Part shown: one piece after another, positions 34,979 to 41,804 of the stretch
Numbering within the stretch: position 1 is the stretch's first letter
Layout of the letters: each line of letters begins with the position of its first letter
Assembly (NCBI GenBank): GCA_944380675.1
Contig: CALWIH010000002.1
Coordinates: 280-64,279 of the forward strand
Direction: 5' to 3'
Origin: an uncultured Clostridia bacterium
GTDB taxonomy: Bacteria; Bacillota; Clostridia; Oscillospirales; Acutalibacteraceae
DNA: 64,000 nt
Made by a program: the position numbers and the translations under genes
The notes under the pieces: generated by a model
What the model was told of the DNA's origin: nothing
Databases searched by the model: none
The model's input: only the letters and a program-made list of their open reading frames with translations

Positions 34979-35278
34979 ATGACGATTTCATCCAGCATCA
35001 AAGACAATCAGGCGGTGCTTCTGGTGGATGGGCGCGTGGATACGAACACGAGTCCGCAGCTTCAGAGCGCCATTCTCGGCGCCTTTCAGCGGTCGGCTCA
35101 CGTTGTGGTCGACTTTGAGAAGGTTCCCTACATCAGCAGCGCCGGTCTTCGCGCGCTCCTGATTGGCCAGAAGACAGCGAACTCGAAGCGGGCCGTGATG
35201 GAGCTTGTCCATGTCTGTCCCGCCGTGATGTCGATTCTGCAGTCCGTCGGCTTCAGCGATATTCTGACGATCCGCTGA
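34979..35278 (+). CDS. STAS anti-anti-sigma factor (RsbV/SpoIIAA-like)
   Basis: VDGRVDTNTSPQL, VVVDFEKVPYISSAGLRALL (phosphoacceptor Ser motif); AAGGAGG RBS, 25 bp after the tail-I stop. Confidence 0.93.
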   Translation: MTISSSIKDNQAVLLVDGRVDTNTSPQLQSAILGAFQRSAHVVVDFEKVPYISSAGLRALLIGQKTANSKRAVMELVHVCPAVMSILQSVGFSDILTIR

Positions 35279-35325
35279 ATCCGGATCGCTTCCCTTCCTT
35301 TTGCATACTGTGAAATGCGTAAGGT

Positions 35326-35365
35326 TGTCCGCGGACGCGAGGTGCGTCCGCCGGACAGCTTTTTT
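35326..35365 (+). terminator. Rho-independent terminator closing the eCIS-STAS operon
   Basis: Stem GCGGACGC/GCGTCCGC with outer TGTCC/GGACA, followed by TTTTTT. Confidence 0.65.
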
Positions 35366-35433
35366 GAGGTTAAGGCCCTTTTGCCGCGTCTGAGGGGCCT
35401 GTTTTCCGGGAAACACCATTTGCCCGCTGATCG

Positions 35434-35480
35434 AAAAAAGCTCCTGCGAAGGCGTCTGAGCAGCCTTCGCAGGAGCTTTT
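35434..35480 (-). terminator. Rho-independent terminator for the NRPS-phosphatase operon (possibly bidirectional)
   Basis: 18-bp perfect inverted repeat AAAAGCTCCTGCGAAGGC-N9-GCCTTCGCAGGAGCTTTT with T tracts on both strands. Confidence 0.75.
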
Positions 35481-35499
35481 GGCATTCCGGAGGAAACGG

Positions 35500-39900: not shown

Positions 39901-41222
39901 CGGTCGAGCAGCTCCCTTTCCTCGGCGGCGACGACGGAGAAGGCGCGCAGGGGCGCGGCGGGATTGGCCGCCGCCGTCTCGAGGATCTGCATCAGTCCCT
40001 CGTGCAGGCGGCGGATCTCCTGCTCGTCAAAGAGCACCTTGCGGTGGTCGTAAAACACGGTGTAGCTGTCGTCAAAGAGGTCGAGGACGTGCAGAATCAA
40101 TCCGCCCATCATCGTCGACGGATCGCCGAACCATACGTCGATCGGGAAGTGATAGTCCCCGACGTCGATCTTCGTCTTCTGGTAGGAGACGGACGCGTCG
40201 ATGAGGTCGCGGGCGCTGTCCTGCCCGGCGGCGGCGTCCTCGACGATCCGCATCAGCGGATATTTCTTATGCTTTGCCGCCCGCGCCGACCGCGCGGCGA
40301 CGTCCCGGCAGAAATCGAGGAACGACGCGTCCGGATCCGGCGTGCAGCGCAGCGGAAGCTCCATGACGAACATCCCCACGCAGCCGCGCTCCGCCTCGGT
40401 GTCGCGGTTCAGGCGCGGCAGGCCCATCACGACGTCCCTGCAGTCCGCGCGCTGGAAGAAGTACAGGCACAGCGCGGCCGTGAACAGGATGTACGGCTGC
40501 AGCCCGCAGTCGCGGGAAAATTCCTTGATGCGCCGCGAGACCTCCGCGGAGAGCCGGAACACGCGCCGCGAGGCCGAGCGGTCGCCCGTCGCCTCCGGGC
40601 TGAGATAGGATTCGCTCAGGGAGAGGTTCCCGAGGGCTTCCTTCCAGAACGCGCGGTCCGCCTCGGCTCCCTCTCCCCGCAGGTACGCCTCCTCCTGCGG
40701 GAGAAAGTCGACGGGGGAGGGATGACGGTGCGAGGGCGTCTGCCCGTCTCGGATCATGAGATAGTTGGAGAATATCTCAGACCAGAGCAGGCCGGTCGCC
40801 CAGCCGTCGCACCAGATATGATGGAATTTACAGAACATCCCGCTGCACCGGTCGCTGAGCCGGACGAGCCGGAACTCCACGAGAGGGGCGTTGAGGAACG
40901 CGAAGGGCCGGTGCCCCCAGCGCCGGAACGTATCCTCCTGCTCCTGCTGGGACAGCGCGCGCAGATCCTCCTCGGGAAGGGACGTATGCATATACGGCGC
41001 GATGTACTGCACGATGGTTCCCTCGGGAGAGGCAATCTGCGTGCGCGCGCCGGGATTCTCGCGGAGAAAGAGATTGACAGCCTCCTCCATGCAGTCGTGC
41101 CGCAGCGGTTCGCGCGCTTTCAGCACAAAATACAGGACGTTCACGTCCGTGCCGGAGGCGACAATTTCCTGGGAATAAATATTTTGCTGAGCCAGGGAAA
41201 GCGGGTAATAAGTTGATTCCAT
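36963..41222 (-). CDS. Single-module NRPS, C-A-T-R (thioester reductase)
   Basis: C: SLAQQ, [79 protein letters not shown], RVGNL. Confidence 0.95.
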   Translation of the reverse strand: [1419 protein letters not shown]

Positions 41223-41250
41223 AGGAAACGGTTCCTTTCTGTATTCAGAG

Positions 41251-41270
41251 GGGCGAAGCGCGCTTCGCCC
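41251..41270. repeat. Perfect 20-bp palindrome between the RsbW-like and NRPS genes
   Basis: GGGCGAAGCGCGCTTCGCCC; no downstream U-tract on the coding (minus) strand. Confidence 0.6.
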
Positions 41271-41351
41271 GAAAAAGCATGGGAACGCCTGAAAAAGCCG
41301 CTGCTTCCCGCCGGACAGGCGAGAAGGTCAAGGGCGGACGCGCCGTCCGCC

Positions 41352-41804
41352 TTACTTGTCTGCCGCCGCGAGCAGCTTTTTCATCATGAAGCAGTTTTGA
41401 CCGTCGCGATATTCGTAAGCGACCTCGTCCATACTCCTGCGTACCATATAAATGCCCAGGCCGCCGATTTGCCGGTCTTCGGCGCTCAGCGTGACGTCGG
41501 GATCCTCTCTGGCAAGCGGATCATACGGCGTGCCGCGATCCATGAAGTCAATCCGAATGCTCAAGGGCTCGTCCTCCAGCGTCCAGGACAGCGTCACGGG
41601 GCCGCGTCCGGGCTCGTAGGCGTAAAGAGCGATATTGACGTAGATCTCCTCTACGGCGATGTCGATCACGATCTTTTCCTCCTCCGGAACGCCGAGCGCG
41701 TCCAGCGGGGAGTTGATAAATTCGAGGACACCGTCGAGCTGCTGGGTTTCTGCCGAGATGGTGATCGTTTTCGATTTCGGAATTCCGGGACGCAGGTAGT
41801 TCAC
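41352..41804 (-). CDS. RsbW/SpoIIAB-like anti-sigma factor Ser kinase (HATPase_c)
   Basis: IAVEEIYVNIALYAY, DRGTPYDP, RQIGGLGIYMVRRSMD; GTG start. Confidence 0.92.
   Translation of the reverse strand: MNYLRPGIPKSKTITISAETQQLDGVLEFINSPLDALGVPEEEKIVIDIAVEEIYVNIALYAYEPGRGPVTLSWTLEDEPLSIRIDFMDRGTPYDPLAREDPDVTLSAEDRQIGGLGIYMVRRSMDEVAYEYRDGQNCFMMKKLLAAADK

What the first reader, a model, noticed from the sequence alone, without database searches (positions are those of the whole stretch)
34979..41804. Partner-switching cascade built around an NRPS, with its STAS component at the end of the eCIS operon
Seen: the minus-strand operon reads RsbW-like kinase, NRPS, membrane PP2C. The matching STAS protein is not in it but is the last gene of the convergent eCIS transcript (25 bp after tail-I). 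No sigma factor is in the window. Established: RsbU/V/W modules switch an output by STAS phosphorylation. Inference: the NRPS makes a small-molecule signal sensed by the PP2C, and STAS made with the tail genes feeds back on the switch, giving a metabolite-gated or quorum-like control of the injection system. The shared direct-repeat box supports the linkage.
Basis: partly seen in the sequence, partly recalled or inferred. Interest (0 to 1): 0.8.

Follow-up and report, generated by a model that had tools for sequence, protein, structure and literature searches.

The report
Phospho-switch and NRPS wired to eCIS
A gut Clostridia bacterium has a phage-tail-like injection machine whose gene cluster ends in a small phospho-switch protein and sits beside a peptide-synthetase operon carrying that switch's kinase and membrane phosphatase. 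Both units carry the same rare promoter box, so they are probably switched on together, though what the switch controls is still unknown.

Summary
STAS (34979-35278, +) follows the Tail_P2_I baseplate gene by 25 bp. The convergent minus-strand operon reads RsbW-like kinase, C-A-T-R NRPS, about-7-TM PP2C. No sigma factor lies on the contig.

The "direct-repeat box" is real. TTCTAAA-N4-TTCTAAA occurs exactly three times in the 2.7-Mb assembly, all in this window. One copy overlaps the -35 region of the eCIS operon promoter. Another lies upstream of the rsbW-NRPS-PP2C promoter. Both sites are conserved in relatives. The likely binder is the OmpR-family regulator encoded beside the eCIS AAA+ ATPase.

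Comparative genomics splits the interpretation.
- STAS, RsbW, PP2C and a reductase-ending NRPS form a cassette. It is widespread in gut Oscillospirales without any eCIS, often with a MATE exporter fused to an RsbW-like domain, and was already noted in Methanobrevibacter ruminantium in 2010.
- One eCIS subtype keeps a distinct STAS orthologue right after its last baseplate gene in three of four lineages, despite rearrangements. One of those lineages has lost the NRPS.

Co-regulation of eCIS and cassette is well supported. The claims that the NRPS product is the PP2C's signal, or that the switch controls injection, remain untested.

The parts
1..2256 (-). AAA+ ATPase (Afp15-like eCIS ATPase). 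Its C-terminal end runs off the window.
   Evidence: PF00004, E = 7.6e-27. It is 67-88% identical in G104, G172 and G201, where it lies between STAS and RsbW or the NRPS.
2253..2966 (-). OmpR/PhoB-family response regulator, co-operonic with the AAA+ ATPase. Candidate binder of the box.
   Evidence: Response_reg plus Trans_reg_C. NCBIfam matches to CseB, MtrA and PhoB types.
3255..4271 (+). Histidine kinase with two N-terminal TM helices and no sensor domain.
   Evidence: HisKA plus HATPase_c. Hydropathy.
4326..4343 (-). Box 1: TTCTAAA-GATT-TTCTAAA. On the + strand it reads TTTAGAA-N4-TTTAGAA. It overlaps the -35 region of the eCIS operon promoter, and an extended -10 (TGgTATGAT, 4361-4369) follows 19 nt downstream.
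   Evidence: Exact match. The box and the -10 are conserved in G104, which has two boxes there.
4460..34953 (+). eCIS operon. It runs from a CIS13/Afp13-like gene (4460-6256) through accessory genes, Pvc16_N cap, DUF4280, sheath, tube, DUF6760, a tape-measure-like gene, 2x CIS_tube, spike (Phage_base_V), gp25 and Baseplate_J, to Tail_P2_I (33892-34953).
   Evidence: Pfam. NCBIfam CIS13_fam, below its cut-off.
34979..35278 (+). STAS-only protein (anti-sigma-antagonist type) with phosphorylatable Ser54. Last cistron after Tail_P2_I.
   Evidence: PF01740, TIGR00377, alignment to SpoIIAA. It belongs to a distinct 'eCIS-type' STAS clade with 96/93 support.
35321..35366 (+). Intrinsic terminator after STAS.
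   Evidence: -30.6 kcal/mol, z = -4.9, followed by U6.
35436..35480 (.). Bidirectional terminator hairpin at the end of the PP2C gene.
   Evidence: -35 kcal/mol on both strands, with U-runs on both sides.
35500..36936 (-). Membrane PP2C (SpoIIE-type) phosphatase with an N-terminal domain of about 7 TM segments.
   Evidence: PF07228 at residues 286-477. Hydropathy. The TM domain is as conserved as the catalytic domain across 7 species.
36963..41222 (-). Single-module NRPS, C-A-T-R, with a terminal thioester reductase.
   Evidence: Pfam. NCBIfam matches AusA and MxcG, below their cut-offs, and Thioester-redct. It is the only NRPS in the genome.
41352..41804 (-). RsbW-like serine kinase / anti-sigma-type GHKL protein. 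First gene of the operon.
   Evidence: PF13581. Alignment to RsbW structure 6M36 with E/N, DxG and GGLG conserved.
41891..41920 (-). Sigma-A-type promoter TTTACA-18-TATAAT of rsbW-NRPS-PP2C.
   Evidence: 11 of 12 positions match. Conserved in 6 species.
41947..41964 (-). Box 2: TTCTAAA-ATTT-TTCTAAA, 26 nt upstream of the -35 of the rsbW operon promoter.
   Evidence: Exact match. Present with 0-1 mismatch at the same place in every relative examined.
42438..42455 (+). Box 3: TTCTAAA-GATC-TTCTAAA in the 42323-42602 intergenic region. Its target transcript is unclear.
   Evidence: Exact match. Not found in relatives.

Best explanation
The four genes are one copy of a widespread, sigma-less partner-switching cassette (STAS, RsbW-like kinase, sensor PP2C) dedicated to a reductase-terminated NRPS. 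In this eCIS lineage the cassette has been drawn into the eCIS regulon.

**Layer 1, transcription. The sequence features are shown; the binder is inferred.** The locus-encoded histidine kinase (3255-4271) and OmpR-type regulator (2253-2966) act on a pho-box-like direct repeat, TTCTAAA-N4-TTCTAAA. One copy replaces the -35 of the eCIS operon promoter. Another lies upstream of the rsbW-NRPS-PP2C promoter. The injection machine, STAS as its last cistron, the kinase, the synthetase and the phosphatase would therefore be made together.

**Layer 2, protein level. Inferred from family knowledge.** RsbW phosphorylates STAS on Ser54. The ~7-TM PP2C removes the phosphate when its membrane domain is triggered. 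Unphosphorylated STAS then binds RsbW, or acts directly, and so changes RsbW's other partner.

**Most likely output.** The switch probably controls making or releasing the NRPS product, most likely an N-acylated amino aldehyde or alcohol. The eCIS link would then be co-expression, with STAS supply tied to eCIS transcription, rather than the metabolite gating injection.
For: **Parts.** All parts are present and intact.

**Box.**
- Three exact copies occur in 64 kb, and only four sites at <=1 mismatch in 2.7 Mb.
- Box 1 plus the extended -10 is conserved in G104.
- Box 2 plus the TTTACA/TATAAT promoter is conserved in all Caccousia/Anaeromassilibacillus relatives.
- The 7+4+7 layout is that of PhoB/OmpR-family sites (established knowledge), and an OmpR-family regulator is encoded in the locus.

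**Cassette independence.**
- STAS, RsbW and PP2C flank reductase-ending NRPSs in 11 of 16 loci examined in the family.
- Eight of those ten genomes have no eCIS sheath.
- In six of them the cluster's MATE exporter carries a C-terminal HATPase_c_2 domain.
- Leahy et al. 2010 (PMC2812497) described the same neighbourhood around NRPS mru0068.

**eCIS linkage.**
- STAS follows Tail_P2_I in the Caccousia clade (6 further genome records, and 7 metagenome contigs), in G201 and in G172.
- G172 has lost the NRPS from the locus. It keeps STAS and RsbW beside the eCIS, and a MATE~RsbW-GH3-PP2C cassette lies 50 kb away on the same contig.
- Each genome has only one STAS besides SpoIIAA.
- eCIS-linked STAS proteins form their own clade.
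Against: - There is no transcript evidence.
- In G172, STAS lies 740 bp after Tail_P2_I with its own promoter-like TATAAT, so co-transcription is not universal.
- In G202, which has the same eCIS subtype, the eCIS-type STAS lies on another contig and is not next to Tail_P2_I.
- The box was not found in the G172 or G201 lineages, so co-regulation is shown only for one clade.
- The box is in opposite orientation at the two promoters.
- This genome has no MATE~RsbW fusion, so the 'export' output cannot be read directly from this locus. RsbW's second partner is unknown.
Confidence: 0.55

Rival explanations
1. The NRPS product is an autoinducer-like signal sensed by the 7-TM domain of the PP2C. The resulting dephosphorylation of STAS frees or blocks RsbW's target, a sigma factor encoded elsewhere or another regulator. 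That controls eCIS expression, assembly or release, with STAS from the tail transcript feeding back.
For: - The NRPS lies inside the same operon as the kinase and phosphatase in all single-module versions (G000 clade, G193, G201).
- The 7-TM PP2C type co-occurs only with the single-module C-A-T-R NRPS. Two-module NRPSs go with other PP2C sensor types.
- The TM domain is as conserved as the catalytic domain.
- In G172 and G201 the eCIS AAA+ ATPase and its regulator lie between STAS and RsbW or the NRPS, on the same strand as RsbW.
- G172 keeps STAS and RsbW beside the eCIS without any NRPS.
- Partner switches encoded in injection or particle loci are known: BtrU/V/W for the Bordetella T3SS (PMC7498569) and RbaV/W/Y for RcGTA (PMC3999984).
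Against: - The cassette is mostly found without an eCIS, and most eCIS lack it.
- Both promoters look sigma-A type with an activator box, so no alternative sigma factor is called for.
- No sigma factor gene lies on any of the four contigs near the cassette.
- There is no evidence that the PP2C binds the product.
- The co-variation of PP2C type and NRPS type may simply reflect common descent.
Confidence: 0.2
2. Neighbourhood without function. The cassette landed next to the eCIS in an ancestor and has been inherited with it as part of one genomic island. STAS, RsbW and the PP2C regulate only the metabolite pathway, or some unrelated target.
For: - All eCIS-linked cases belong to one eCIS subtype within one bacterial family, so they may trace to a single insertion.
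- G202 shows that the linkage can be broken.
- More distant eCIS have a CIS13-like gene, not STAS, after Tail_P2_I.
Against: - The shared, genome-unique promoter box argues for co-regulation.
- Three independent rearrangements left STAS beside Tail_P2_I: an inversion of the NRPS block, an insertion of HK/RR/AAA between STAS and the NRPS, and a loss of the NRPS.
- Flanks outside the set are not conserved.
- eCIS-linked STAS is more conserved than the other parts. STAS is 56-60% identical in G172, G201 and G202 against 39% in G193. RsbW, PP2C and NRPS are equally distant in G193 and G201.
Confidence: 0.15
3. The NRPS product is an accessory of the injection system itself. It might be a protease-inhibiting aldehyde that protects released particles in the gut, or a co-delivered small-molecule effector. 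The partner switch would prevent self-harm by timing its synthesis.
For: - The NRPS operon shares the box with the eCIS operon, so the two are probably co-regulated.
- Reductase-released peptide aldehydes from gut Clostridia inhibit proteases (Guo et al. 2017, as summarised in PMC8210680).
Against: This is pure inference. The product is unknown, the A-domain substrate could not be assigned, and the cassette usually exists without an eCIS.
Confidence: 0.1

Closest known systems
RsbU/RsbV/RsbW-sigmaB and SpoIIE/SpoIIAA/SpoIIAB-sigmaF partner switching (Bacillus)
   Same: It has the same three parts: a STAS protein with the conserved phospho-serine, a GHKL serine kinase of the HATPase_c_2 family, and a PP2C phosphatase with an N-terminal sensor or membrane domain.
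   Different: No sigma factor is encoded on the contig. The genome's canonical spoIIAA-spoIIAB-sigF set lies elsewhere (contig C47). An NRPS gene sits between the kinase and phosphatase genes.
NRPS neighbourhood mru0066-mru0071 of Methanobrevibacter ruminantium M1 (Leahy et al. 2010, PMC2812497) and the gut Clostridia peptide-aldehyde NRPS clusters (Guo et al. 2017)
   Same: An NRPS starting with a C domain is flanked by serine phosphatases, an anti-sigma antagonist and, in sister loci, a MatE exporter. Release is reductive.
   Different: Here the NRPS has a single module (C-A-T-R, the architecture of MxcG). The locus has no MatE. The STAS gene is detached and placed at the end of an eCIS operon.
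Bordetella BtrU (PP2C) / BtrV (STAS) / BtrW (kinase) in the bsc type III secretion locus
   Same: A partner-switching triad is encoded within an injection-system locus and is needed for secretion rather than acting through RsbW-sigma binding (PMC7498569, PMC8256260).
   Different: The machine differs (T3SS versus a phage-tail-like eCIS), there is no NRPS, and the host is Gram-negative.
RbaV/RbaW/RbaY of Rhodobacter capsulatus (gene transfer agent control)
   Same: A partner switch affects production of a phage-derived particle (PMC3999984).
   Different: It is not encoded in the particle gene cluster. It acts on a GTA, not on a contractile injection system. No biosynthetic enzyme is involved.
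PpkA/PppA/Fha1 threonine-phosphorylation pathway of the Pseudomonas aeruginosa H1-T6SS (from my own knowledge)
   Same: A kinase and a PP2C phosphatase set the phosphorylation state of a small adaptor that gates a contractile injection machine after translation.
   Different: It uses a Hanks-type kinase and an FHA adaptor, not a GHKL kinase and STAS. Any such role here is hypothetical.
PhoB/OmpR-family pho-box promoters
   Same: Two 7-bp direct repeats are separated by 4 bp, giving an 11-bp period. They replace the -35 hexamer in front of a good -10, and an OmpR-family regulator is encoded next door.
   Different: The half-site sequence (TTCTAAA) and the regulon (eCIS plus the NRPS operon) differ. 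Binding has not been tested.

Membership tests
Partner-switching module (RsbV/RsbW/RsbU type) | STAS-only protein with the conserved phosphorylatable Ser/Thr | tested here: met
   PF01740 and TIGR00377. Ser54 aligns with SpoIIAA Ser58 in the DSSGL/ISSAGL motif.
Partner-switching module (RsbV/RsbW/RsbU type) | HATPase_c_2 serine kinase with intact N, G1 and G2 boxes | tested here: met
   PF13581. Alignment to RsbW structure 6M36 shows the E..N box, DxG and GGLG conserved.
Partner-switching module (RsbV/RsbW/RsbU type) | PP2C (SpoIIE-type) phosphatase with metal-binding aspartates | tested here: met
   PF07228, E = 2.3e-52. The motifs GGDFYD, SDVSGKG, YTDGVTEA and DDITML are visible in the translation.
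Partner-switching module (RsbV/RsbW/RsbU type) | Cognate sigma factor encoded with the module and bound by the kinase | tested here: not met
   There is no Sigma70_r2 hit on the window's contig, on G104:C41 or on G172:C59. In G193 the nearest is 120 kb away. Binding cannot be tested with these tools.
Partner-switching module (RsbV/RsbW/RsbU type) | Reversible phosphorylation of STAS by the kinase and the phosphatase | not testable with these tools
   This needs in vitro phosphorylation or Phos-tag assays.
Extracellular contractile injection system (Afp/PVC-like eCIS) | Sheath, tube, spike, gp25/J/I baseplate, Afp16-like cap and AAA+ ATPase, without capsid or terminase genes | tested here: met
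   Phage_sheath_1, T4_gp19, CIS_tube x2, Phage_base_V, GPW_gp25, Baseplate_J, Tail_P2_I, Pvc16_N, DUF4280 and AAA. CIS13_fam matches below its cut-off. No capsid, portal or terminase family was hit among the ORFs scanned in the window. Whether particles are released was not tested.
Reductase-terminated NRPS (AusA / MxcG / gut peptide-aldehyde type) | C-A-T-R domain order with catalytic motifs intact | tested here: met
   Pfam domain order. [28 protein letters not shown] and YAASK are visible. TIGR01746 thioester reductase.
Reductase-terminated NRPS (AusA / MxcG / gut peptide-aldehyde type) | Orthology to a characterised synthetase, or a known product | tested here: not met
   Scores for AusA (610 bits against a 2500 cut-off) and MxcG (462 against 2300) are far below the equivalog cut-offs. 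The best family relatives outside the genus are 30-36% identical. The A-domain substrate was not assignable.
NRPS + STAS + MATE~RsbW + PP2C cassette (gut/rumen; Leahy 2010 neighbourhood) | STAS and PP2C and/or RsbW genes within the NRPS operon neighbourhood | tested here: met
   The same set is seen in 10 family genomes.
NRPS + STAS + MATE~RsbW + PP2C cassette (gut/rumen; Leahy 2010 neighbourhood) | MATE exporter carrying a C-terminal HATPase_c_2-like domain | tested here: not met
   None is found in the window or elsewhere in the assembly. It is present in G037, G145, G199, G114, G012 and G202.
PhoB/OmpR-type regulated promoter | Two direct-repeat half-sites with 11-bp spacing at or upstream of -35, and a cognate OmpR-family regulator | tested here: inconclusive
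   The architecture and a candidate regulator are present and the sites are conserved. Binding was not tested, and the orientation differs between the two promoters.

The most novel reading that the evidence does not exclude
An eCIS with its own chemical checkpoint. The locus's NRPS makes an N-acyl amino aldehyde or alcohol that the 7-TM PP2C senses. The resulting STAS dephosphorylation acts after translation on the injection system, for example through the AAA+ ATPase that lies between STAS and RsbW in two lineages. Particle assembly or release would then be gated by a self-made metabolite, on top of transcriptional control by the locus's two-component system.
Probability: 0.15. Interest if true: 0.85.

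Novelty: new variant of a known kind. Interest (0 to 1): 0.62.

Why it matters
How eCIS are switched on and released is poorly understood, especially in Gram-positive gut anaerobes.

This locus gives a concrete, testable regulatory circuit:
- a two-component system with a defined DNA box in front of the eCIS operon;
- the same box in front of a metabolite operon;
- a phospho-switch split between the two transcription units.

It also adds an unusual context to the unstudied sigma-less NRPS partner-switch cassette that is common in gut and rumen microbes. That context could help to find what these switches control. If the switch acts on the machine, it would be the first partner switch, and the first small-molecule pathway, tied to an eCIS.

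Tried and rejected
- **Generic repeat finder** on 33800-43600. It gave only chance-level matches. The 11-mer CCTTCCTTTTG, shared between the STAS 3' region and the rsbW promoter, is not conserved in relatives. I dropped it as the 'box'.
- **The 88-aa ORF at 42056-42322**. It has no Pfam hit and no homologue in any relative, so it is probably not a gene.
- **Rfam** on 34800-43600 and on the G172 STAS leader. Nothing was found.
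- **AlphaFold2 model of the PP2C** from a shallow 7-sequence alignment. Mean pLDDT was 48.5, so the model was unusable and no fold search was run.
- **A-domain substrate.** The high PDB score to LgrA is the sum of two A domains (260 and 275 bits), not a special likeness to its Gly domain. My hand-derived specificity code (D-I-L-F-M-G-A-I-V-K) comes from aligning to GrsA as I remember it. It shares D-I-L..G.I.K with Gly-type codes as I recall them, which is a lead only.
- **A box equivalent in G172 and G201.** No recurring 7-4-7 repeat was found.
- **Guo et al. 2017** (PMC5302092) is not held. It is cited through PMC8210680.
- **My first ORF choice** for 40-2954 (+ strand) was wrong. Those ORFs are antisense artefacts, corrected.

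Full report
**1. What is there**

Pfam places four genes at the coordinates given:
- a STAS-only protein at 34979-35278 (+);
- a SpoIIE-type PP2C at 35500-36936 (-);
- a 1419-aa NRPS with Condensation, AMP-binding, PP-binding and NAD_binding_4 (thioester reductase) domains at 36963-41222 (-);
- an RsbW-like HATPase_c_2 protein at 41352-41804 (-).

The gene before STAS (33892-34953) is Tail_P2_I. It is the last of a long + strand run of contractile-injection genes: Pvc16_N cap, DUF4280, sheath, T4_gp19 tube, 2x CIS_tube, Phage_base_V spike, gp25 and Baseplate_J. The STAS ATG is 25 bp after the Tail_P2_I stop and has its own AAAGGAGGA ribosome-binding site.

The PP2C has about seven hydrophobic segments in its first 230 residues.

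The functional motifs are intact:
- STAS Ser54 aligns with the phospho-serine of SpoIIAA.
- RsbW keeps the E/N, DxG and GGLG boxes of RsbW structure 6M36.
- The PP2C aspartate motifs and the NRPS core motifs can be read in the translations.

The two convergent units end in strong hairpins. One of -30.6 kcal/mol with a U6 run follows STAS, and a bidirectional one of -35 kcal/mol follows the PP2C. A near-consensus promoter, TTTACA-18-TATAAT, lies upstream of rsbW. No Sigma70_r2 hit lies on the contig.

**2.

The + strand ORFs at 40-2274 and 2280-2954 are antisense artefacts, with the amino-acid make-up typical of reverse-strand translation. On the minus strand lie an AAA+ ATPase (1-2256, PF00004) and an OmpR-family response regulator (2253-2966). 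A two-TM histidine kinase diverges from them (3255-4271). The first gene of the + strand operon (4460-6256) is CIS13/Afp13-like, below the family cut-off. The eCIS locus thus runs from the window's start to 34953 and has its own two-component system.

**3. The box**

The generic repeat finder gave nothing convincing. Aligning the rsbW upstream regions of six species showed a conserved promoter and, upstream of it, a conserved direct repeat. Searching TTCTAAA-N4-TTCTAAA gave exactly three perfect matches in the window (chance mean 0.55 even with 3 mismatches allowed). The whole 2.7-Mb assembly has only four sites at <=1 mismatch.

- **Box 1 (4326-4343)** sits where a -35 would be. An extended -10 (TGgTATGAT) follows 19 nt downstream, in front of the eCIS operon. 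Box and -10 are conserved in the same-genus genome G104 (Candidatus Caccousia avicola), which has two boxes there.
- **Box 2 (41947-41964)** lies 26 nt upstream of the -35 of the rsbW-NRPS-PP2C promoter. It is present with 0-1 mismatch in every relative of the clade.
- **Box 3 (42438-42455)** is specific to this genome and unexplained.
- **The fourth site**, with one mismatch, lies upstream of a MORN-repeat protein gene on contig C25. It is a possible further regulon member, because a MORN protein is also encoded in the eCIS locus.

In 1.08 Mb of fetched loci the box occurs at those places, plus a single one-mismatch site at L024:239-256 in G193. The 7+4+7 layout is that of PhoB/OmpR-family sites (established knowledge). 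The regulator in the locus is the obvious candidate binder (inference). This is the strongest evidence that the eCIS and the NRPS/switch operon are co-regulated.

**4. The cassette exists on its own**

The genome belongs to a large family of gut Oscillospirales. Record titles name Anaeromassilibacillus, Caccousia, Gallacutalibacter and Acutalibacteraceae/Oscillospiraceae. Of 201 family genomes:
- 45 have an NRPS-like hit;
- 18 have this sheath;
- only G000 and G104 have both.

I fetched 16 reductase-ending NRPS loci from 15 genomes. Eleven of them carry STAS with RsbW and/or PP2C genes: G000, G104, G193, G037 (two loci), G145, G199, G041, G114, G167 and G012. Five do not, even with custom HMMs.

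A recurrent operon is STAS, then a MATE exporter with a C-terminal HATPase_c_2-like domain, then the NRPS. In G114 and G167 the PP2C itself carries a C-terminal RsbW-like domain. G193 has no eCIS and carries STAS-NRPS-PP2C(7TM)-RsbW on one strand.

Leahy et al. 2010 described the same neighbourhood around NRPS mru0068 of Methanobrevibacter ruminantium. They listed two serine phosphatases, an anti-sigma antagonist and a MatE protein, and suggested sensing, regulation and export (PMC2812497). Earlier notes of this scan report the cassette in many other genomes. I use them only as agreement with what I found independently.

**5. But STAS sticks to this eCIS subtype**

A GTDB-wide scan and a metagenome scan with Tail_P2_I found 9 and 10 loci.

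- **Caccousia/Anaeromassilibacillus clade.** All members long enough to judge repeat the layout Tail_P2_I-STAS | PP2C-NRPS-RsbW.
- **G201 (uncultured Clostridia E14_bin126; Tail_P2_I 42% identical).** Its order is Tail_P2_I-STAS-HK(-)-RR-AAA-small ORF-PPTase-NRPS-PP2C(7TM)-RsbW.
- **G172 (Ca. Gallacutalibacter pullicola; sheath 74% identical).** It has Tail_P2_I-STAS-HK(-)-RR-AAA-small ORF-RsbW and no NRPS. A MATE~RsbW-GH3-PP2C cassette lies 50 kb upstream on the same contig.
- **G202.** The gene after Tail_P2_I is unrelated. The eCIS-type STAS (60% identical) lies on another contig, and a separate RsbW-STAS-MATE~RsbW-PP2C cassette also exists.
- **More distant eCIS (Tail_P2_I 23-28% identical).** They have the CIS13-like gene after Tail_P2_I and no STAS.

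Each genome has only one STAS besides SpoIIAA; G202 has two. In a tree the eCIS-associated STAS proteins form a clade with 96/93 support, apart from those of G193 and the MATE-linked ones.

Identity to G000 also sets STAS apart. It is 56-60% in G172, G201 and G202 but 39% in G193. RsbW (47-48%), PP2C (46%) and NRPS (34%) are equally distant in G193 and G201.

Three different rearrangements left STAS next to Tail_P2_I, and flanks outside the set are not conserved. This argues for selection on the linkage. All cases may still descend from one ancestral insertion. In G172, STAS also has its own promoter-like sequence 400 nt upstream.

**6. How it most likely works**

*Shown:*
- intact switch parts;
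- a shared, conserved, genome-unique box at both promoters;
- a conserved STAS position;
- a cassette that is self-sufficient elsewhere.

*Inferred:*
- The HK/RR pair turns on both operons.
- RsbW and the 7-TM PP2C set the phosphorylation of STAS Ser54.
- The output is the metabolite pathway, because that is the universal partner of the switch, and because sister cassettes attach the RsbW-like docking domain to the exporter.
- STAS supply is tied to eCIS transcription.

In G172 the only non-sporulation STAS is the eCIS-adjacent one, while the exporter-phosphatase cassette lies elsewhere. That fits information flowing from the eCIS to the metabolite at least as well as the reverse. I give this reading 0.55.

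The NRPS product cannot be named.
- The enzyme starts with a C domain, which suggests N-acylation (as Leahy et al. also note).
- It ends in a reductase, so release as an aldehyde or alcohol is expected.
- It shares the C-A-T-R architecture with MxcG, but far below the equivalog score.
- The A-domain substrate is not assignable.

**7. Comparison and novelty**

The triad is a partner-switching module by three of its defining features, but it fails the sigma-factor feature. Sigma-less outputs are known, for example BtrU/V/W, SypE/A and SiaABC (review PMC8256260). A partner switch inside an injection-system locus is known for the Bordetella T3SS (PMC7498569), and one affects a phage-like particle in Rhodobacter (PMC3999984). 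Two full-text searches, for partner switching or anti-sigma factors together with contractile injection systems, returned no report of a partner switch tied to an eCIS. I did not search the literature for an NRPS tied to an eCIS.

The NRPS/switch cassette itself has been seen before but never studied. I therefore rate this a new variant of a known kind, of moderate to high interest. The testable core is the box and the two-component system, not the speculative metabolite feedback.

**8. Limits**

- No usable structure model was obtained (pLDDT 48.5).
- The genomes are MAGs.
- Co-regulation is shown by sequence in one clade only.

Noticed in passing
window 43549-62785: A separate conflict-system-like gene set lies here: Double-GTPase (DO-GTPase2/1), two Hsp70-like ATPases (one fused to VWA), a GAP1-M domain protein, a HerA/FtsK-like ATPase, an Endonuclease_NS_2 nuclease and a transglutaminase-core protein. 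It resembles the GTPase-centred NTP-dependent conflict systems described by Aravind's group (from my own knowledge).
   Followed up: no
genome contig C25:6913-6930 (outside the window): This is the only other site of the box in the assembly, with one mismatch (TTTTAAA-GTTT-TTCTAAA). It lies about 55 nt upstream of a TTGCAT / TGgTATATT promoter of a 496-aa MORN-repeat protein gene. That gene may belong to the same regulon as the eCIS, whose locus also encodes a MORN protein at 9725-10984.
   Followed up: partly
window 42438-42455: A third exact copy of the box lies in an AT-rich intergenic region between a doubtful 88-aa ORF and a minus-strand SDR gene. No clear target promoter is visible, and the copy is absent from relatives.
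   Followed up: partly
window 40-2954: The long + strand ORFs here are antisense artefacts of a high-GC region. The real genes are the minus-strand AAA+ ATPase and response regulator.
   Followed up: yes
L029 (G199) 17039-18796; L027 (G037:C4) 4701-6491; L032 (G114) 5183-7147; L047 (G167) 4112-6070: MATE exporters carry a C-terminal HATPase_c_2-like domain, and PP2C phosphatases carry a C-terminal RsbW-like domain. All lie in NRPS operons with STAS and no sigma factor.
   Followed up: partly
L037 (G172:C59) 2213-7255: A MATE~RsbW-like exporter, a GH3-family amido synthetase and a HAMP-PP2C form one operon. This is a partner-switch cassette built around a GH3 enzyme instead of an NRPS.
   Followed up: no
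L063 9070-9309; L039 13297-13518; L021 4424-4621; genome C5:32242-32430: A conserved 74-79-aa protein with the motif ...EMEEE.(D/E)WP.FQ...GINTAPSVF(D/E)RQCVF lies just after, or near, the eCIS AAA+ ATPase in three lineages. It was not scanned against Pfam.
   Followed up: partly
L039 (G172) 8190-8560: The 740-bp gap between Tail_P2_I and STAS in G172 holds two similar ~70-nt elements. Each begins with GGTATA(A)T...GCAGA...TAAACGCGGGCAT. Neither matches any Rfam family.
   Followed up: no
window 7168-9696: An 842-aa membrane protein with a HAMP domain and a long uncharacterised C-terminal part lies inside the eCIS accessory region. It is 55% identical in G104.
   Followed up: no
L063 9239-9997: A 252-aa ORF lies directly upstream of the NRPS in G201. 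It reads like an Sfp-type 4'-phosphopantetheinyl transferase, with GIDIE and W..WESYLK motifs (judged by eye).
   Followed up: no
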